DNA of 64,000 nt from the sequence record NC_101842.1. One strand, 5' to 3'. The position numbers and the translations under genes are program-made. Source of the stretch: a phage. Below, piece after piece: positions 11,883-63,759 of this stretch (within the stretch, counting starts at the first letter, position 1; each line of letters starts with the position of its first letter). The notes beneath the pieces were generated by a model, which worked only from the letters and a program-made list of their open reading frames with translations, did no database searches and was not told where the DNA came from.

Positions 11883-14660
11883 ATGAGCATGTGGTCGTTC
11901 GACTTTGAGTCATCCGGTTTGCTGGAAGATCCAGATCTTTATTATCACTGCGGCCTGTTTAAAGAGCTGAATAAGAACCGTTTTATGCTGTTCCTTCCTC
12001 TAAATGACCGCACACACTACTCCGAAGAGGATATAGAGAAGGCTAAGAACTTTATTCTGGCAAAGAAAACTCTTCATAAAGATTTTGAAGTTCGCATAGC
12101 AGATTTTTCGGAGTTGGAAGGTTGGCTTACAGGCAATTCCGACTGGTCACCAACAGCTTTGAACTGCCATAACTGCTACAGTTATGACTTTATGCTGATA
12201 GAAAGATTATCCGGTATTCATTTTGATATGTTCCGTGATCCTAAATGCATGGGGACTATCAACGACCACCAGGTTAACCTGTTTGATACGTTGGCGATGA
12301 GCAGAATCTTGTGGCCTGATCGCCCTTTACCAAAAGGTTGTCCGGACTCTGTATTCAACCCGGTTACTAAGAAAATGCAGCCTGTTGGTCCTCACGGCCT
12401 TATGGCATGGGGCTACGCCCTTGGTAACCAGAAAGTTCAAATTGATGACTGGCGCGATCTTCCGTTGTGGAAGTATGTGGATCGTGTATTCGAGGACGTT
12501 ATCATCCAGGAGCTGCTCTGGAAAGAGCTGGTAGCGGAATCAAAAGGTGTATTCTACGGCAAATCTGACATGCAGAACTTTATGTACGATCCAGCCAAAG
12601 AGAAGCCGAAAGGGTTCAAGAAAATCACCTGGAAGAACGCATTACGCCGAGGCATGCTGCAGCACTTCCTGATGGAGCTGCAGGCCCGTCAGGGTGTGTA
12701 TTTCGACATAGATGGGGCTATTGCTTTACGTGACCGTTGCGATGCGTGGATGAAAGAGATCGCTGATCGTGTTGAACCTCAACTTCCTTTAAAAGAGTTG
12801 TCAATGTCTCAGCGGCCCAAGTTCCCTGAAAAGCCGTTTAACCAAGATGGGACAATCTCCAATAATGGTTGGAAATGGTTAAAAGATAAGCTTGGCTATC
12901 CTGTAGACATGAGCGCTTTAGAATTCAAAGCCCCGCCTAAGCGAGCATTTACCTCCACAGGAGATGTCAGCAAGATGGGGATAAAATGGTGCGAAGAGAT
13001 GGGCTGCAAAGACCCCGACAAGATGGCTGATTTCTTGAGAGGTTATATTAAGGGCACCTCCACACCACAACCTTTACCTAAAGAGCTGATGGATCAGGCA
13101 ATAAGTGATCTGCAGCAGAAGCGAATGCCTGACTGCAAGATACCTATGAAAATCAGCAATCAGGACGACATTAAGCGATACCTGATCAGTGCTGGTTGGC
13201 TTCCGACAATGTGGAGAACTAAGGATGTAACTAAGGACAGCAAGAAGAAAGCTCTACCTGATGCAGATGTTGATGCACGAGTATATGCATACATGGACGA
13301 GCTTTTAGAGTCAGAGTATTGTGACCTAATTATCAACTTCTGGAACAAAACTGATGCTAAGTTTCAGACAACAGTGCACAAGTTCCGAAGCTTTCCTAAC
13401 TCCGAAAGGATTAAAAAGGAAGTGTTCGGGAAAATACGCAGAAAAGCCAGGGCACTTATTACTTCTCCGCAACTGAAAGATACGTTTGGACACCTATGTC
13501 CGAATCTTGAAAAATTGAACGGAGAGATGGCTAAAGATATCGTCTTGTGGTTATCATTGCGAAACCGCAGATCGGTCCTTGATCCAATCAAGGAGGATAA
13601 GGTTGATACTGGTCTTCTTAATCACCCACGTTTGAAGATTGACCATAAGCTTCCTGCTAAAAGCTCTGGATTAACAAACACTTCCCGACAGAAACACAGT
13701 ATTTGTGCAAACATGCCTAAACCATCTCCTAAAGTGGTTATGGGTAAAGAGATGCGTAGCTTGTGGGGTGTTCCTCCTGGATACTTTGAGATCGGTATTG
13801 ACGGGTCCAACTTAGAGCAGCTTATCGGGGCTTGGGGTGCCTTTGAGTTCGACAACGGCTTGTACTATGATGTTGTAAGTAACGGGGACGCACACCAAAA
13901 CAATGCTGAGGCATATACAAAAGTAGCAGGCAGAGAGGTGTCTCGTAACGACGGTAAACCTATCACGTATGGGGTTATGTACGGGGCACAAAAAGATAAA
14001 GTTGCAGATATGCTGGATATCTCCCCAGAGTTGGGGCAAAGGGTGATCGATGCACTTTGGGATGCCAACCCCGGTCTTAAGGGGCGCAAAGAGGATCTGG
14101 AGAAATTCTGGGAAGCAACAGGTAAGAAGTTTATCTACTCTTTTGATGGTCATGCTATCTGGACCCGATCTAAACACTCTTTACTTAATGCATACCAACA
14201 AAATGGTGGTGCATCGCTGTGTGACTTAGTTGGGATACTCATGCACCACCAAATGGTGAAGCGTGGGTGGTACGATGAAGGTGTCCGTCGTATTATCTAT
14301 TACCATGACGAATATCAGCTTCAAGTGCCTGACACACCGAAGTATAAGACTGTGTACACCTTCGACACAATTGAAGAACTGGAAGCATTTAAGGCAGAGC
14401 AGGAAGCCAAACTTCATGTGTTCGACGGTCATAAGTACAAAAAGGCACGCAAGGATGAGGACGGAAACGAAGTGGTTGACAGAGACGGAAACACGGTGTA
14501 CGATCCTATCCTGAACGATGACGGAAAGCTTGAACTTATCTGGAGCCCTGTGGGTGAAATGGTGGTGCATTGCTTCTGGCAAGCTTCTAAAATGATGGGA
14601 GTCCCGTTCCAGATCACAGGTGAATACTTGTGTGGTCGTAACTGGGGTGATTGTCACTAA
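11883..14660 (+). CDS. DNA polymerase, family A, with N-terminal 3'-5' exonuclease motifs
   Basis: Exo I FDFESSG; pol motif A-like EIGIDGSNLEQL; motif B R...K...YGVMYG; motif C YYHDEY. Confidence 0.85.
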   Translation: MSMWSFDFESSGLLEDPDLYYHCGLFKELNKNRFMLFLPLNDRTHYSEEDIEKAKNFILAKKTLHKDFEVRIADFSELEGWLTGNSDWSPTALNCHNCYSYDFMLIERLSGIHFDMFRDPKCMGTINDHQVNLFDTLAMSRILWPDRPLPKGCPDSVFNPVTKKMQPVGPHGLMAWGYALGNQKVQIDDWRDLPLWKYVDRVFEDVIIQELLWKELVAESKGVFYGKSDMQNFMYDPAKEKPKGFKKITWKNALRRGMLQHFLMELQARQGVYFDIDGAIALRDRCDAWMKEIADRVEPQLPLKELSMSQRPKFPEKPFNQDGTISNNGWKWLKDKLGYPVDMSALEFKAPPKRAFTSTGDVSKMGIKWCEEMGCKDPDKMADFLRGYIKGTSTPQPLPKELMDQAISDLQQKRMPDCKIPMKISNQDDIKRYLISAGWLPTMWRTKDVTKDSKKKALPDADVDARVYAYMDELLESEYCDLIINFWNKTDAKFQTTVHKFRSFPNSERIKKEVFGKIRRKARALITSPQLKDTFGHLCPNLEKLNGEMAKDIVLWLSLRNRRSVLDPIKEDKVDTGLLNHPRLKIDHKLPAKSSGLTNTSRQKHSICANMPKPSPKVVMGKEMRSLWGVPPGYFEIGIDGSNLEQLIGAWGAFEFDNGLYYDVVSNGDAHQNNAEAYTKVAGREVSRNDGKPITYGVMYGAQKDKVADMLDISPELGQRVIDALWDANPGLKGRKEDLEKFWEATGKKFIYSFDGHAIWTRSKHSLLNAYQQNGGASLCDLVGILMHHQMVKRGWYDEGVRRIIYYHDEYQLQVPDTPKYKTVYTFDTIEELEAFKAEQEAKLHVFDGHKYKKARKDEDGNEVVDRDGNTVYDPILNDDGKLELIWSPVGEMVVHCFWQASKMMGVPFQITGEYLCGRNWGDCH

Positions 14661-59835: not shown

Positions 59836-60429
59836 TCAAATACCTTCTAAAAACTTTCCTATTTTATACCAGCTATTAGCGGTATAGTCAACACTGACCT
59901 TTAACTCCTCAAATTGCTCATAAGGCGTATCTTTTAGGATTTTAATAACTTCAGGGCGTGAAGCGAATTGGTTCAGGTATTCATGCCTGTCGTCAATTAT
60001 AACATCTACAGCCACATTTCCCTTGAAATGCGTGGCGTAGAAGCCGTGACCCTGGGTGTGATCGTCCAGATCCATAAAATCACTAGTCCAACGCTTTAAG
60101 AACCTTGATTTAGATGCAAGGTGACCTTTCTTGCATACCGAGATAAATGCAAGCTTGTGACCACGAGCCACCAAATCTTTCATAACCTCAATAGCCCCCT
60201 CTTCAGGCTTAAGAAAGTCGTAGAGGAACGGGTCACTCCAGAAATCAAAAGGCCCTATGATGTTTTCTTTGGGGCGATCAGGCCAATACTTTGACAGATC
60301 GTAATACATTAACCCATTAGAAGGTTTAGTGACTGTCTTACTGGCTGGACCATATAAACGCTCCAACCACTCCCACCATGCTGTTCCTGAATCTACCAGT
60401 GTCAAATCTACATCAATACCGATTAACAT
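59836..60429 (-). CDS. HAD-superfamily 5'(3')-deoxyribonucleotidase-like protein
   Basis: HAD motif I IGIDVDLTLVDS (DxDxT). Confidence 0.55.
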   Translation of the reverse strand: MLIGIDVDLTLVDSGTAWWEWLERLYGPASKTVTKPSNGLMYYDLSKYWPDRPKENIIGPFDFWSDPFLYDFLKPEEGAIEVMKDLVARGHKLAFISVCKKGHLASKSRFLKRWTSDFMDLDDHTQGHGFYATHFKGNVAVDVIIDDRHEYLNQFASRPEVIKILKDTPYEQFEELKVSVDYTANSWYKIGKFLEGI

Positions 60430-61040
60430 TCTTCTTGGGCCTCTTTAGCATCAATATACTTGCACACAATCTCCGATGCACATTCCCAAGGTGCACCTTC
60501 AGGGTTTACAACATCGAACTCAATTCCTTTTATTCCGTTCTTTTCCAGACTTAGATAGGTTCTGGAATCATTTCCCCAGTCATATCCGACACGGTGAATA
60601 CGGAACAACAACAGATCTCCACCTGTGCTGTACGCGTACTCGCTAAGGCATGCCAGCTCCTCTTTGAATCCACCATCGGAGTAAACAACAACCCCTTTAC
60701 CTTTAGGGAAATCTTTCTTCAAAGATGCGACTGCGGCTTTACCGAAAGCATCTTCACCAAAGATAGGTTTAATCAGATTTTCACTACAATGGATCATCCA
60801 TTCTCGCGGAGAAACATGCTTGCCGTCTATCATTAAGAAAGGGCAAGGCTCTTCTTTGTAGTGGCGGTCATAAAGTGCATTCCAGAGTTGAGGAGTTACA
60901 CCAGCTGCCTTAATTGCCACACTGAAGAGCATCTCCTTAACCTCACGGTGGTGTGAGTTAGGAATAGCTTCCAACAAGAGATCTGCAATGTGATCCTTAC
61001 CACTGCTGGGTGGGGCGTTAAGAACAATAATATCCATCAA
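60423..61040 (-). CDS. P-loop kinase, putative deoxynucleoside monophosphate kinase
   Basis: N-terminal P-loop LNAPPSSGKD resembling T4 gp1-type dNMP kinases. Confidence 0.5.
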   Translation of the reverse strand: MMDIIVLNAPPSSGKDHIADLLLEAIPNSHHREVKEMLFSVAIKAAGVTPQLWNALYDRHYKEEPCPFLMIDGKHVSPREWMIHCSENLIKPIFGEDAFGKAAVASLKKDFPKGKGVVVYSDGGFKEELACLSEYAYSTGGDLLLFRIHRVGYDWGNDSRTYLSLEKNGIKGIEFDVVNPEGAPWECASEIVCKYIDAKEAQEEC

Positions 61041-61255: not shown

Positions 61256-61714
61256 TTAGAAGTTTGTTTTTACACGTCCCTTTTCATCAACCTCGTTGTT
61301 GGCTAGAAGCGTTACAAAGTCTGTGAAACGGACATGAAGAACTCTTTTCTTATCAAGGTATCCTAAAGCCACCCCTGAGAAATTTAGCATCAAAGGGGCT
61401 AAAGAAGCTCTGGCACTGAAATGCTGTTGTTCTACCCTTCCAACACCCTTAGTGTAGGATGGGTTAAGATTGTAAGTTCTGAATCCCAGTTTTGTTGGAG
61501 CTTTAGAATTAAAAACAACTTTATAGCGTTTCTTACTCAACTTATGCTCCAGGATAAGCATTCCCTTATCACCCTTGATAAGTTGAAAATCTGTAAAGTG
61601 CTCTTTTAATACGAAAGGTAGTGCCAGTCCCATCGCCTGCCCCCTTTGTACCGCTGTCTCACCAAAAGCTTTTGCATCAGTAAGTTCTTTGGTCAAGTCT
61701 ATGCTTTTGATCAT
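61256..61714 (-). CDS. hypothetical protein
   Basis: ORF in array. Confidence 0.55.
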   Translation of the reverse strand: MIKSIDLTKELTDAKAFGETAVQRGQAMGLALPFVLKEHFTDFQLIKGDKGMLILEHKLSKKRYKVVFNSKAPTKLGFRTYNLNPSYTKGVGRVEQQHFSARASLAPLMLNFSGVALGYLDKKRVLHVRFTDFVTLLANNEVDEKGRVKTNF

Positions 61715-62525
61715 ACCTAGTCTCCAAAATGTATTGTAGTTCTTTCTTACCTATACTCTTCATTCCGGCAGTCTTACCTGCTTCTTCTTGAAAAGAAGAA
61801 TAGCATTCAGCAAACACTCTGTCAACACCGTCAACTAAAGATTTTATGAAATATGTTGATTCTTCAGATTTTGGGTCATCCTCCCCCAATACTTTTCCAG
61901 CATTATACCCAACACGTCTTACACAGAAGTCGTAGTCATCTGGAGTGCTAAAAGAAAATAACTTATTCTCCCCAATCTCTACAGGATCCCTGTTGCACGC
62001 CTTTTTCTCCCAAATTTGGAAAACACACGGCACGTCATAAGGTTTGCCATTAAGTAGAAACGAGTTCTTAGGGCACCTTTCACTGTAGACAAGGTGCATC
62101 GACATGTCCAGTTTGTTTGCAAAAAATATTTTTTCAAATGTCCGTGGCAAGATGAAGGCTATAGCCCCTCCAAGCTCTAGCAATGATGCACAATGGTTAA
62201 AGAATTTGCAAGCTAAAGATGAATTCTTGCCAAATGGTGGGTTACCTATGAAGACATCTGCCTTGGGATGCACCTCCAAGAAGTTTGCCTGAATGCACGG
62301 TGTTGGTCCTTCAAATTCAGGATCTGGTACTAGATCGTAAGACAGTATCTCTGAAAATAGTTTTGAAAAAGAACCCCTTCCAGCAGAAGGCTCAACGTAT
62401 GCACAATTTCCATACTTATCTTTTACTTTACCAACAAGATATTCTGCATACTCAGGGTTTGTGTAATATTTGTCGTTGGACTCTTTCTTGCTCAAAGTGC
62501 CTCCAAAAGGAAAAGGGAGGCGCAA
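61677..62525 (-). CDS. DNA N6-adenine methyltransferase (NPPF motif)
   Basis: Motif I EPSAGRGSF and motif IV FIGNPPFG; N-terminal KYYTNPEYAEYL. Confidence 0.75.
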   Translation of the reverse strand: MRLPFPFGGTLSKKESNDKYYTNPEYAEYLVGKVKDKYGNCAYVEPSAGRGSFSKLFSEILSYDLVPDPEFEGPTPCIQANFLEVHPKADVFIGNPPFGKNSSLACKFFNHCASLLELGGAIAFILPRTFEKIFFANKLDMSMHLVYSERCPKNSFLLNGKPYDVPCVFQIWEKKACNRDPVEIGENKLFSFSTPDDYDFCVRRVGYNAGKVLGEDDPKSEESTYFIKSLVDGVDRVFAECYSSFQEEAGKTAGMKSIGKKELQYILETRYDQKHRLDQRTY

Positions 62526-62541
62526 GCCTCCCTATACTTGA

Positions 62542-63531
62542 TTAGATTATCTGAATCAGGGTGTTTTTCATTTCTTCTCTGGTACGGATGTTGTTACGGT
62601 CACGAACAACAGATCCACAACCTTCGCAGCGATATGTTTTAAATGCACTCAGTTGAGTATACGCCAAAGCTTCTTCCTCGTGAAGGTGTTCTCCACCGCA
62701 GCGTGGGCAACGAACTTTTGGCTCCTCATCCTGGTAGTACAATGACATGTTGGGGTGCTGCTTAGCAAACGGGCGTGCCAGCAAATACAGGCCTTCCAGA
62801 GATAGGATATCACCAACATTGTACTCCCGCATCTGTTTAAACGCCTCAAGATCACCATGAACACACTTGATCCACATTTCAAATGTGTGGTCAATCAGTT
62901 TCTGTCGGGCAAGTTGGAAGTATTTGCATGCATACTCCAAAGTGTTTGCATTCAAACGGAATGCCTTCTTGATCATTTTAAGGGTGTCAACCTCTTTGTA
63001 TGGGCTTGTTGGAGGCAACCCGTGAAATGCAAATCGTTGGTTTGCCCACCCACAGTCAAAACCTGAATTGTGGGCTACTGCGACATCACATTTATCCAGA
63101 TAATACCACAAGTCCTGAATCAATTCGAGGTCATTGTGAATATCCTCATCCCACATTTTGTAATCGGGAAGAGCGCAGTCAACCACACTAGGACTGTCTA
63201 ACCACTTACCTGCGAAAGTTAGCATATAGGGCATAATTTCAATACCGCAGGTTTGAATGTTGGTCTTATAGTGCCCAAAGAACCAGCCGTTTGTTGGTGA
63301 TGTTTCTGTATCATACACCCAAACTTTAGCTCCTTTGTGTTCTTCAAGGAAGCGCTCCGTTGCTTCTCCTACAATCTCTGACATATTCTCTTGTGCACGT
63401 TTAAGCTGTAGTCGGATCCAACTCTCACGTGACTCACGGCCTAAAAATTCACGAGCAATTTGTCTATTAGTGTATCCCTGCTGCTTTAGTGTTAAAATTT
63501 GCTCAAGAGTTAACTTTGTCATCATCGTCAA
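62542..63531 (-). CDS. DEDDh 3'-5' exonuclease with N-terminal HTH and C-terminal zinc ribbon
   Basis: Exo I VWVYDTETSP, Exo II VAHNSGFDCGW, Exo III YNVGD; HTH-like LTLKQQGYTNRQIAREF; CPRCGG...CEGCG. Confidence 0.7.
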   Translation of the reverse strand: MTMMTKLTLEQILTLKQQGYTNRQIAREFLGRESRESWIRLQLKRAQENMSEIVGEATERFLEEHKGAKVWVYDTETSPTNGWFFGHYKTNIQTCGIEIMPYMLTFAGKWLDSPSVVDCALPDYKMWDEDIHNDLELIQDLWYYLDKCDVAVAHNSGFDCGWANQRFAFHGLPPTSPYKEVDTLKMIKKAFRLNANTLEYACKYFQLARQKLIDHTFEMWIKCVHGDLEAFKQMREYNVGDILSLEGLYLLARPFAKQHPNMSLYYQDEEPKVRCPRCGGEHLHEEEALAYTQLSAFKTYRCEGCGSVVRDRNNIRTREEMKNTLIQII

Positions 63532-63537
63532 AATTCC

Positions 63538-63759
63538 TTAGTAAAACTGAAGAATGTCTTTTAAAGCGAAGTCACGATATTCGCCCTTGTCTACATCAAA
63601 GGCATGCATCAACCACTGCTCTTCTTTATGATACTCTGTAGAGCCAAACCATAAATTAGGCTCAGTAACGCAGCGATCTGCAACAACACCTTTCCAGTTA
63701 CGGTATTTCATCCTGATCAGGACTGAGTCGCAAGGATTGAATACCTTTTTCATCCCCAT
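63538..63759 (-). CDS. hypothetical protein
   Basis: GGAGAG RBS before ATG. Confidence 0.5.
   Translation of the reverse strand: MGMKKVFNPCDSVLIRMKYRNWKGVVADRCVTEPNLWFGSTEYHKEEQWLMHAFDVDKGEYRDFALKDILQFY

What the first reader, a model, noticed from the sequence alone, without database searches (positions are those of the whole stretch)
62542..63531. DEDDh exonuclease fused to an N-terminal HTH and a C-terminal zinc ribbon
The exonuclease I, II and III motifs are flanked by an HTH-like N-terminus and CPRCGG...CEGCG at the C-terminus. This is an unusual domain combination for a stand-alone phage exonuclease; it may be a proofreading subunit, a host-DNA degradation enzyme or a nucleic-acid-sensing regulator.
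Basis: partly seen in the sequence, partly recalled or inferred. Interest (0 to 1): 0.45.

Follow-up and report, generated by a model that had tools for sequence, protein, structure and literature searches.

The report
Common phage 3'-5' exonuclease, DEDDy type
The gene encodes a widespread, already annotated phage 3'-to-5' exonuclease with a DNA-binding helix-turn-helix in front and a zinc ribbon behind, so the domain layout is ordinary for this family, although no member has been tested biochemically.

Summary
The ORF (62542-63531, minus strand; likely true start ATG 63525) is real. The window is 100% identical to rV5-like coliphages (Vequintavirus), where the gene is annotated as a "DnaQ-like 3'-5' exonuclease".

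- an N-terminal helix-turn-helix;
- an exonuclease core with motifs I-III;
- a C-terminal four-cysteine zinc ribbon.

Two claims fail:
- The active site is DEDDy (D74, E76, D159, Y237-x3-D241), not DEDDh. No histidine is conserved. The fold is closest to the proofreading domains of family B and T7 DNA polymerases.
- The architecture is not unusual. It is the standard layout of PHROG 403, with matches in 1,527 phage records and about 5,700 protein clusters.

The exonuclease plus zinc ribbon is the constant core. The N-terminal DNA-binding module is swapped or absent in relatives.

The gene sits in the replication/recombination module. A 5'-3' exonuclease and endonuclease VII lie upstream, and nucleotide-synthesis genes lie downstream.

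Neighbouring polymerases keep their own exonuclease motifs, and a mycobacteriophage with no polymerase still carries a family member. An obligate "polymerase subunit" role is therefore unlikely.

The most likely function is a free-standing DNA 3'-end-trimming nuclease. I found no experimental study of any member.

The parts
62542..63531 (-). Whole ORF: 329 aa from TTG 63531, or 327 aa from the more likely ATG at 63525. Stop codon TAA at 62544-62542.
   Evidence: PHROG 403, E=1.4e-110, profile positions 2-320 of 321. Annotated as bas48_0199 'DnaQ-like 3'-5' exonuclease'.
63535..63539 (-). Shine-Dalgarno AAGGA. It overlaps the stop codon of the upstream 73-aa ORF and lies 9 nt before ATG 63525.
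   Evidence: Read directly from the sequence.
63388..63510 (-). N-terminal tri-helical helix-turn-helix, residues about 8-48 (helices 9-17, 22-29, 33-48). It resembles transposase/resolvase/LuxR-type HTHs.
   Evidence: AF2 secondary structure. HTH_38 E=0.0034 and HTH_7 E=0.009 for this protein. In relatives, 13 of 36 N-termini hit HTH_38, 11 hit HTH_23 and 5 hit GerE. NarL HTH at E=0.27 in the PDB profile search.
63334..63387 (-). Helical linker, residues about 49-66. This is the lowest-confidence part of the model. Its length varies, with inserts of up to about 40 aa in Certrevirus-like relatives.
   Evidence: pLDDT 67-71 for residues 41-60. Alignment columns 60-120.
62746..63333 (-). DnaQ-fold 3'-5' exonuclease domain of the DEDDy type, residues about 67-262.
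63304..63312 (-). Exo I motif D74-T-E76 (GAT ACA GAA).
   Evidence: Invariant. D and E each present in 214 of 218 members; the other 4 are gaps.
63055..63069 (-). Exo II motif N155-S-G-F-D159.
   Evidence: D159 in 218 of 218 and N155 in 216 of 218 members. It aligns with the HNAAFD motif of Pol III epsilon.
62809..62823 (-). Exo III motif Y237-N-V-G-D241, i.e. Y-x3-D, the DEDDy signature.
   Evidence: Y and D each in 217 of 218 members. hhalign pairs it with YNVQD (Y170..D174) of T7 DNA polymerase.
62584..62718 (-). C-terminal zinc ribbon, residues about 272-316. The knuckles are C275-P-R-C278 (62698-62709) and C302-E-G-C305 (62617-62628), with three beta strands (283-291, 296-302, 308-314).
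   Evidence: four Cys in 214 of 218 members. Sub-threshold hits to several zinc-ribbon Pfam families at E about 0.002-0.005.
62514..62533 (-). Intrinsic terminator hairpin (AGGGAGGC-TTGC-GCCTCCCT followed by TTTCCTTTT), starting 9 nt after the stop codon. The exonuclease gene therefore closes a transcription unit.
   Evidence: A 'terminator' feature is annotated at this place in phages EdH4 and HdK5.

Best explanation
The gene encodes a free-standing, metal-dependent 3'-to-5' exonuclease of the DEDDy branch of the DnaQ-like superfamily. This is the branch that holds the proofreading domains of family A and B DNA polymerases.

Chemistry (inferred from the family). D74, E76, D159 and D241 would hold two divalent metal ions. 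Y237 would position the attacking water. Nucleotides would be removed one at a time from a 3'-OH end.

Domain roles. The zinc ribbon is packed onto the catalytic domain and is as conserved as the active site, so it is an integral part of the enzyme. It most likely contacts the nucleic-acid substrate or a partner protein (inferred). The N-terminal HTH is an exchangeable accessory. Relatives carry Myb-like or NUMOD1 modules instead, or nothing. It probably tethers the enzyme to duplex DNA (inferred).

Biological role (inferred from gene context). The enzyme is a DNA 3'-end-trimming nuclease of the phage replication/recombination module. It would act beside the FEN-type 5'-3' exonuclease and endonuclease VII. 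It would process recombination and replication intermediates, and it may help convert broken DNA to nucleotides for the adjacent nucleotide-synthesis genes. It is probably not an obligate subunit of the phage DNA polymerase.
For: Enzyme class:
- PHROG 403 matches full length at E=1.4e-110.
- The AF2 model has mean pLDDT 89.9 and pTM 0.78.
- D-E-D-Y-D is intact in 213 of 218 diverse members and four Cys in 214 of 218.
- Distant homologues in ICP1, phiKMV-like, RSB3 and mycobacteriophage Geralt keep all nine residues.

Accessory HTH:
- 26 of 218 members have fewer than 15 residues before the core.
- HTH, Myb and NUMOD1 variants occur in relatives.

Context, from 82 loci:
- A 5'-3' exonuclease (PHROG 107) lies upstream on the same strand in 25 loci.
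- Endonuclease VII lies upstream in 10 loci, at a median distance of about 220 bp.
- NrdA lies downstream in 22 loci.
- Primase/helicase and PolA lie further upstream.
- The same order is seen in rV5-like, phiKMV-like, RSB3 and JG068 phages.

Against an obligate polymerase subunit:
- Of the five distinct PolA sequences next to a family member whose ORF starts inside the locus (six loci; four share two identical sequences), each begins with D-x-E and carries an N-x3-[FY]-[DE] motif. The other PolA hits are cut by a locus end or are C-terminal halves, so they cannot be judged.
- The window's own PolA (11883-14660) aligns with T7 polymerase at D5/E7, D65 and D174.
- Mycobacteriophage Geralt has a family member (gp35) but no annotated DNA polymerase among its 97 features.
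- In the window the polymerase gene is 48 kb away on the other strand.
Against: - No member has been assayed. I found no experimental paper.
- Substrate (DNA or RNA, single- or double-stranded) is not determined by sequence. RNase D and Rrp6 are also DEDDy enzymes.
- The gene-context argument covers only 25-40% of the loci, and BLAST/HMM clustering of neighbours is insensitive.
- In the window's PolA the Exo III tyrosine is not at the canonical Y-x3-D spacing (KYVDRVFED against T7 DYNVQD). A compensating trans-acting exonuclease therefore cannot be excluded for this phage.
- Zinc binding and DNA binding by the two flanking modules are inferred only.
- The active-site geometry of the model could not be inspected.
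Confidence: 0.55

Rival explanations
1. Trans-acting proofreading subunit. The protein would dock on the phage replicative polymerase (or on the host Pol III in phages without a polymerase) and excise misincorporated 3' nucleotides, as epsilon does for E. coli Pol III.
For: - The PHROG 403 label and many GenBank names say so.
- The fold is that of polymerase proofreading domains.
- The gene belongs to the replication module.
- The window's PolA lacks a tyrosine at canonical Exo III spacing.
Against: - The names are transitive annotations with no experiment found.
- Of the five distinct PolA sequences next to a family member whose ORF starts inside the locus, each keeps Exo I and Exo II.
- The window's PolA keeps all four carboxylates.
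- Geralt has the gene but no phage polymerase.
- The protein is not DEDDh and scores far below the epsilon equivalog cut-offs (26.8 against 196 bits).
- The gene is never immediately adjacent to pol in the loci inspected.
Confidence: 0.2
2. Host-DNA scavenging nuclease. Together with endonuclease VII and the 5'-3' exonuclease, it would degrade host chromosome fragments to mononucleotides for phage DNA synthesis. This would be analogous to T7 gp3/gp6 and T4 DexA (established knowledge, not tested here).
For: - Synteny with both nucleases upstream, and with thymidylate synthase, RNR, a P-loop kinase-like gene and a HAD-like phosphatase downstream.
- The same exo - ThyA - MTase - Nrd order in ICP1.
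Against: - The family is also present in a temperate mycobacteriophage (Geralt), next to the lysis cassette and integrase. Wholesale host-DNA degradation is not expected there.
- I found no data on host-DNA breakdown in rV5-like phages.
- This overlaps with the main explanation rather than excluding it.
Confidence: 0.12
3. RNA 3'-end processing or degradation enzyme. It would act in an RNase D-like way on phage tRNA precursors, on host or phage transcripts, or on a nucleotide-based defence signal.
For: - rV5-like phages carry a tRNA cluster.
- There is a weak hit to a CRISPR-associated DEDDh model in PADLOC (E=3.7e-6).
Against: - The best structural matches are DNA-polymerase exonuclease domains, which score clearly above the RNases.
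- phiKMV-like members occur in phages without tRNAs.
- The gene context is DNA metabolism.
- The PADLOC hit covers only the generic Exo II region.
Confidence: 0.06
4. HTH-directed regulator or nucleic-acid sensor, in which the nuclease fold serves as a binding module.
For: An N-terminal HTH is present.
Against: - All five catalytic residues are kept in 213 of 218 members, which argues for catalysis.
- The HTH is missing in 26 of 218 members and replaced by unrelated DNA-binding modules in others.
Confidence: 0.04

Closest known systems
PHROG 403 ('DNA polymerase exonuclease subunit'), which appears to correspond to the phage cluster of Pfam PF13482 (RNase_H_2, 'YprB-like'), cluster F.23 of Majorek et al. 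2014 (PMC3985635). That correspondence is my inference, not a tested mapping.
   Same: - Full-length match covering HTH, exonuclease and zinc ribbon.
- The nearest BFVD model is the LKA1 'YprB ribonuclease H-like domain' protein, TM 0.72.
- 13 of 34 close relatives pass PF13482.
   Different: Nothing structural: this protein is a typical member. The family name implies a polymerase-subunit role that is not supported here. Majorek et al. list the family as uncharacterised.
3'-5' proofreading domains of family B DNA polymerases (Pol II, Pol epsilon, archaeal PolB, RB69/T4 gp43) and of T7 DNA polymerase
   Different: It is a stand-alone 37-kDa protein without a polymerase domain. It carries an HTH and a zinc ribbon that the polymerase domains lack. 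Sequence identity is only 11-18%.
E. coli DNA polymerase III epsilon subunit (DnaQ), RNase T and Cas2-DEDDh (the DEDDh branch, PF00929)
   Different: The Exo III H-x4-D is absent. The PF00929 match stops before Exo III and is below the gathering score (21.7 against 24 bits). The epsilon equivalog models score 23-27 bits against cut-offs of 196-223.
T4 DexA (exonuclease A), a free-standing phage DEDD 3'-5' exonuclease. This comparison is from my own knowledge and was not tested here.
   Same: A stand-alone phage 3'-5' exonuclease that is not part of a polymerase.
   Different: As I recall, DexA is a small DEDDh enzyme without an HTH or a zinc ribbon. No sequence comparison was run.

Membership tests
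DnaQ-like (DEDD) 3'-5' exonuclease superfamily | Exo I D-x-E, Exo II N/x-x3-F/Y-D and an Exo III acidic residue, on an RNase H-like fold | tested here: met
DEDDh subfamily (DnaQ / RNase T, PF00929) | Exo III motif H-x4-D with a conserved catalytic histidine | tested here: not met
   The column aligned with DnaQ H162 (window H215) is E 69, G 53, D 29, T 18 among 218 members. The H225 column is E/K/N/A. PF00929 scores 21.7 bits, below the gathering score of 24, and the match ends at residue 211.
DEDDy subfamily (polymerase-type and RNase D-type) | Exo III motif Y-x3-D | tested here: met
   Y237-NVG-D241 is present in 217 of 218 members. It aligns with T7 polymerase Y170..D174. Relatives hit PF13482, PF10108, PF03104 and PF01612 through Exo III.
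PHROG 403 | Full-length profile match | tested here: met
   E=1.4e-110; residues 4-328 on profile positions 2-320 of 321.
Pfam PF13482 (RNase_H_2 / YprB-like) | Score above the gathering threshold (22 bits) | tested here: inconclusive
   The window protein gives no PF13482 hit at E<=1. However, 13 of 34 aligned relatives (best E=1e-14) and all ten of the longer family members scanned pass it.
DNA polymerase III epsilon subunit (DnaQ proper) | Equivalog-level similarity plus DEDDh | tested here: not met
   NF004316 scores 26.8 bits against a cut-off of 196, and TIGR01406 scores 23 against 222.7. The protein is DEDDy, not DEDDh.
Accessory proofreading subunit of a phage DNA polymerase | Occurs together with a polymerase that lacks its own proofreading site | tested here: not met
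   Of the five distinct PolA sequences next to a family member whose ORF starts inside the locus, each keeps Exo I and Exo II. The window's PolA keeps D, E, D, D. Geralt has the gene but no annotated polymerase.
Accessory proofreading subunit of a phage DNA polymerase | Physical binding to the polymerase | not testable with these tools
   No complex prediction or interaction data were available.
Zinc ribbon | Two CxxC knuckles flanking a three-stranded antiparallel sheet | tested here: met
   C275/C278 and C302/C305 are present in 214 of 218 members. Strands 283-291, 296-302 and 308-314 have pLDDT 92-95.
Zinc ribbon | Bound zinc ion | not testable with these tools
   Requires metal analysis of purified protein.
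Helix-turn-helix DNA-binding domain (HTH_38 / HTH_23 / HTH_7-like) | Tri-helical bundle with a profile match | tested here: inconclusive
   Three helices are predicted. The window protein's own hits are sub-threshold (E=0.0034-0.009; 16.5-17.5 bits against cut-offs of 24-27). Homologous N-termini of relatives hit HTH_38 (13 of 36, best E=1.2e-5), HTH_23 (11, best E=2.3e-6) and GerE (5, best E=4.8e-7).

The most novel reading that the evidence does not exclude
PHROG 403 proteins may be a distinct and so far unstudied class of phage enzyme. In this reading, a polymerase-derived DEDDy exonuclease is locked to a zinc ribbon and forms a conserved three-nuclease set with a FEN-type 5'-3' exonuclease and endonuclease VII. 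The set would process 3' ends during recombination-dependent replication or DNA scavenging, independently of any polymerase. The exchangeable N-terminal HTH would set where on DNA the enzyme acts. A variant of this reading applies to Vequintaviruses. There, the PolA Exo III tyrosine is displaced and this protein has taken over part of the proofreading in trans.
Probability: 0.25. Interest if true: 0.45.

Novelty: already known. Interest (0 to 1): 0.22.

Why it matters
For this window, little changes. The gene is a catalogued, routinely annotated phage exonuclease.

Two corrections are useful for annotation:
- The family is DEDDy (polymerase-proofreading-like), not "DnaQ / Pol III epsilon".
- The label "DNA polymerase exonuclease subunit" is not backed by co-occurrence with exonuclease-deficient polymerases.

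The family is very large. It has matches in 1,527 of 50,697 phage records and in about 5,700 clusters at 50% identity. It spans myo-, podo- and siphoviruses of Gram-negative hosts and actinobacteria. A single biochemical study would therefore fix the function of thousands of genes.

Tried and rejected
- Direct BLASTP of the exonuclease against the N-terminus of the window's own PolA found nothing (best E=2.8). The two are not recent paralogues.
- hhalign of the family profile against the T7 polymerase N-terminus aligned only the Exo III segment (probability 20%). This is useful for the motif but is not proof of specific kinship.
- Pfam, NCBIfam and PDB sequence searches with the single protein gave only weak DnaQ-type hits that stop before Exo III. 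Taken alone they would have wrongly suggested DEDDh.
- PADLOC gave only a generic DEDDh hit over Exo II. There is no evidence for a defence or anti-defence role.
- Literature searches found no experimental characterisation. They covered rV5/Vequintavirus, the 'DNA polymerase exonuclease subunit' label, ICP1 gp189, phiKMV gp24, PF13482 and DEDDy in phages.
  - The phiKMV-like knockout screen in PMC11596505 did not include the orthologue gp30.
  - The mycobacteriophage toxicity screen concerns a different 183-aa DnaQ-like pham.
- MAFFT alignment of the phiKMV-type PolA with T7 polymerase was unreliable and was not used.
- The afdb50 fold library was unavailable.
- I considered using the second structure job on the PolA N-terminus.

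Full report
**What the window is.** The 2-kb stretch around the finding is 100% identical to Escherichia phages EdH4, HdK5 and CarlMeissner, and 90-100% identical to 120 phage records in all, mostly rV5-like coliphages of the genus Vequintavirus. In those records the gene is called 'DnaQ-like 3'-5' exonuclease', 'putative DNA polymerase/exonuclease', 'nuclease', 'DNA polymerase III, epsilon subunit' or 'hypothetical protein'.

**The ORF.** The ORF listing gives 62542-63531 on the minus strand, 329 aa from a TTG. The sequence upstream reads TAAGGAATTTTGACGATGATG. The AAGGA (63539-63535) lies 3 nt from the TTG but 9 nt from the first ATG (63525). The real product is therefore probably the 327-aa form used in GenBank and in the 100%-identical cluster P0001. 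I keep the 329-aa numbering; subtract 2 for the shorter form. An intrinsic terminator (8-bp stem, 6 G-C pairs, T-rich tail) starts 9 nt after the stop codon, at 62533-62514 on the minus strand. The gene therefore ends a transcription unit.

- *Whole protein.* It matches PHROG 403 end to end at E=1.4e-110.
- *Catalytic residues.* In a 34-sequence alignment (28-77% identity) the invariant residues are D74, E76, N155, D159, K211, W220, Y237, D241, C275, C278 and C302, with C305 nearly invariant. I aligned 218 diverse family members to that profile. These were the 71 word-index hits plus the 150 best 50%-cluster representatives. D-E-D-Y-D is complete in 213 of them, and the four cysteines in 214.
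- *Model.* The AlphaFold2 model is confident (mean pLDDT 89.9, pTM 0.78). It shows three short N-terminal helices plus a long linker helix. An alpha/beta core follows, then a three-stranded sheet between and after the two CxxC knuckles, and finally a C-terminal helix.
- *HTH.* For the window protein alone the HTH is only suggested (HTH_38 E=0.0034, HTH_7 E=0.009, NarL HTH E=0.27). The homologous N-termini of relatives give clear hits: 13 of 36 to HTH_38, 11 to HTH_23 and 5 to GerE/LuxR. Single members carry Myb-like or NUMOD1 modules instead.

**What is wrong in the observation.** The enzyme is not DEDDh.
- The single-sequence hits to RNase_T (PF00929), Pol III epsilon and PolC all stop at about residue 211, before Exo III.
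- In the profile alignment to epsilon, DnaQ H162 falls on window H215. That column is E/G/D/T in the family, and the position five residues on is the invariant W220, not an aspartate.
- The other nearby histidine, H225, sits in a column that is E/K/N/A.
- The conserved Exo III is Y237-x3-D241. hhalign pairs it with Y170-NVQ-D174 of T7 DNA polymerase.
- Relatives pass Pfam thresholds for PF13482 (to the end of the profile), PF10108, PF03104 and PF01612, all DEDDy-type families.
- The DEDDy and DEDDh definitions follow the usage summarised in PMC12926913.

**Is the architecture unusual?** No.
- tblastn finds relatives in 1,527 of 50,697 phage records, 762 of them covering at least 80% of the query. 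Hosts include Mycobacterium, Escherichia, Pseudomonas, Vibrio, Xanthomonas, Klebsiella and Acinetobacter.
- An exhaustive profile search finds 5,739 50%-identity cluster representatives at E<=1e-3, of which 2,589 reach E<=1e-30.
- Of the 218 members examined, 168 have a 40-100-residue N-terminal extension, 16 have a longer one and 26 have none.
- RSB3 gp29 and mycobacteriophage Geralt gp35 lack the HTH. ICP1 gp189 and phiKMV-like ABTNL_29 have an N-terminal extension of 79-94 residues that I did not scan. All four keep the nine key residues.
- The constant unit is therefore exonuclease plus zinc ribbon, and the N-terminal DNA-binding module is an exchangeable accessory.
- Majorek et al. 2014 already placed phage PF13482 sequences in a cluster (F.23) tightly linked to the PolB exonuclease clusters. 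They listed the family as uncharacterised, presumed 3'-5' exonucleases. That this protein's family is their cluster F.23 is my inference.
- The best BFVD match is the LKA1 'YprB ribonuclease H-like domain' protein, TM 0.72.

**Gene context.** In CarlMeissner the order on the coding strand is as follows:
- DNA ligase, then further genes, then a 5'-exonuclease and two small ORFs;
- endonuclease VII, a 73-aa ORF, this exonuclease and the terminator;
- an N6-adenine methyltransferase and small ORFs;
- a P-loop NTPase, a HAD-like protein, thymidylate synthase, NrdAB and NrdDG.

I fetched 80 related viral loci and clustered the neighbouring ORFs across 82 loci. The results were:
- a PHROG 107 5'-3' exonuclease upstream and co-oriented in 25 loci;
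- endonuclease VII upstream in 10 loci, at a median distance of about 220 bp;
- an HNH endonuclease within 6 kb in 15 loci (upstream in 13);
- a primase/helicase upstream in 13 loci;
- PolA upstream in 11 loci;
- NrdA downstream in 22 loci.

The same order, 5'-3' exonuclease then endonuclease VII then this gene, holds in three other phages. These are phiKMV-like ABTNL (directly adjacent), RSB3 (one gene between) and JG068 (one small ORF between). In ICP1 the gene is followed by thymidylate synthase, an adenine methyltransferase and NrdA.

**Is it a polymerase subunit?**
- The window's own DNA polymerase (11883-14660, plus strand, 925 aa) is a T7-like family A enzyme, with E=7e-16 to T7 gp5.
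- Its N-terminus aligns with T7 D5/E7 (FDFES), D65 (HNCYSYD) and D174 (FEDV), so the four metal-binding carboxylates are present.
- The tyrosine is not at the canonical spacing (KYVDRVFED). I could not resolve this further.
- Of the five distinct PolA sequences next to a family member whose ORF starts inside the locus, each begins with D-x-E and has an N-x3-[FY]-[DE] motif. The remaining PolA hits are cut by a locus end or are C-terminal halves of split genes, so they cannot be judged.
- Mycobacteriophage Geralt carries a clear family member (E=4e-36, all key residues) between its lysis cassette and integrase. No DNA polymerase is annotated among its 97 features.
- The exonuclease shows no detectable pairwise similarity to the PolA N-terminus.

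Together these results argue against an obligate proofreading-subunit role. They do not exclude an auxiliary one in this phage.

**Most likely mechanism.**
- *Shown.* The fold, the full DEDDy catalytic set, an integral four-Cys ribbon, an HTH-type N-terminus, and membership of the replication/recombination gene module.
- *Inferred from family knowledge.* Two-metal-ion hydrolysis of the 3'-terminal phosphodiester. D74, E76, D159 and D241 would act as metal ligands, and Y237 would orient the nucleophilic water.
- *Inferred from anatomy.* The zinc ribbon and HTH increase affinity for DNA, or position the enzyme on it.
- *Inferred from context.* The enzyme trims 3' ends of recombination, replication or breakdown intermediates, beside the 5'-3' exonuclease and endonuclease VII. 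This may feed the adjacent nucleotide-synthesis genes.
- *Rivals, in order of likelihood.* Trans-proofreader, dedicated host-DNA scavenger, RNA 3'-end nuclease, and non-catalytic regulator. The last is disfavoured by the strict conservation of the active site and the dispensability of the HTH.

**Literature.** I found no experimental work on any member.
- The rV5 genome paper does not mention the gene.
- JG068 gp24 was called a DNA exonuclease from an HHpred match to epsilon.
- A phiKMV-like knockout screen did not test the orthologue.

**Verdict.** This is a correct sighting of a real three-module protein, but it is an ordinary, widely distributed and already annotated phage exonuclease. The subtype call (DEDDh) and the claim of an unusual architecture are wrong. 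Its interest is low. What remains of value is that a very large family still lacks a tested function, and that its usual functional label looks unfounded.

Noticed in passing
window 11883-14660 (+): The phage's T7-like family A DNA polymerase (925 aa) keeps Exo I (FDFES), Exo II (HNCYSYD) and the Exo III aspartate. Where T7 has DYNVQD it reads KYVDRVFED, so the Exo III tyrosine is not at Y-x3-D spacing. The rV5 paper annotated a shorter 775-aa form.
   Followed up: partly
window 62514-62533 (-) and 61677-62525 (-): The mechanical TTG start of the downstream N6-adenine methyltransferase ORF (62525) lies inside the terminator hairpin that follows the exonuclease gene. GenBank uses a start about 30 nt further in (819-nt CDS). 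The methyltransferase therefore probably begins a new transcription unit.
   Followed up: partly
window 63538-63759 (-): A 73-aa ORF lies between endonuclease VII and the exonuclease. It matches only the middle (positions 122-189 of 251) of PHROG 3715 (unknown function, E=6e-26), and its start overlaps the end of the endonuclease VII ORF. In my neighbour clustering it chained with HNH-endonuclease ORFs, so it may be a detached domain.
   Followed up: no
phage records matched (e.g. MG065674.1 Campylobacter phage A140): Twenty records named 'Campylobacter phage', with host given as C. jejuni, matched this E. coli rV5-type query in the megablast (90-100% DNA identity band). For A140 the encoded protein is 99.1% identical. 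This is surprising for such different hosts and suggests mislabelling or contamination.
   Followed up: no
proteins P0121 (576 aa) and P0166 (587 aa): These two family members match the profile in two separate stretches. The C-terminal half of the exonuclease starts only at about residue 408. This suggests a large insertion (perhaps an intein or homing-endonuclease-like element) inside the exonuclease domain. Pfam found nothing in the insert.
   Followed up: partly
window 59836-61040 (-): Downstream of the exonuclease and methyltransferase lie a HAD-type phosphatase-like ORF (MLIGIDVDLT..., 197 aa) and a P-loop NTPase ORF (205 aa). Thymidylate synthase and the RNR genes follow. This looks like a nucleotide-salvage block next to the nuclease block.
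   Followed up: no
L004 633-3056 and L003 3-2417 (phiKMV-like and RSB3 PolA): These PolA proteins have HNAMFE or HNAPFE at Exo II, i.e. a glutamate where the canonical motif has aspartate.
   Followed up: no
L006 19969-20622 (Mycobacterium phage Geralt gp63): Geralt carries a second gene annotated as a DnaQ-type exonuclease ('Rnase H' / DnaQ exonuclease) in its early region, in addition to the PHROG 403-type gp35 next to the lysis cassette.
   Followed up: no
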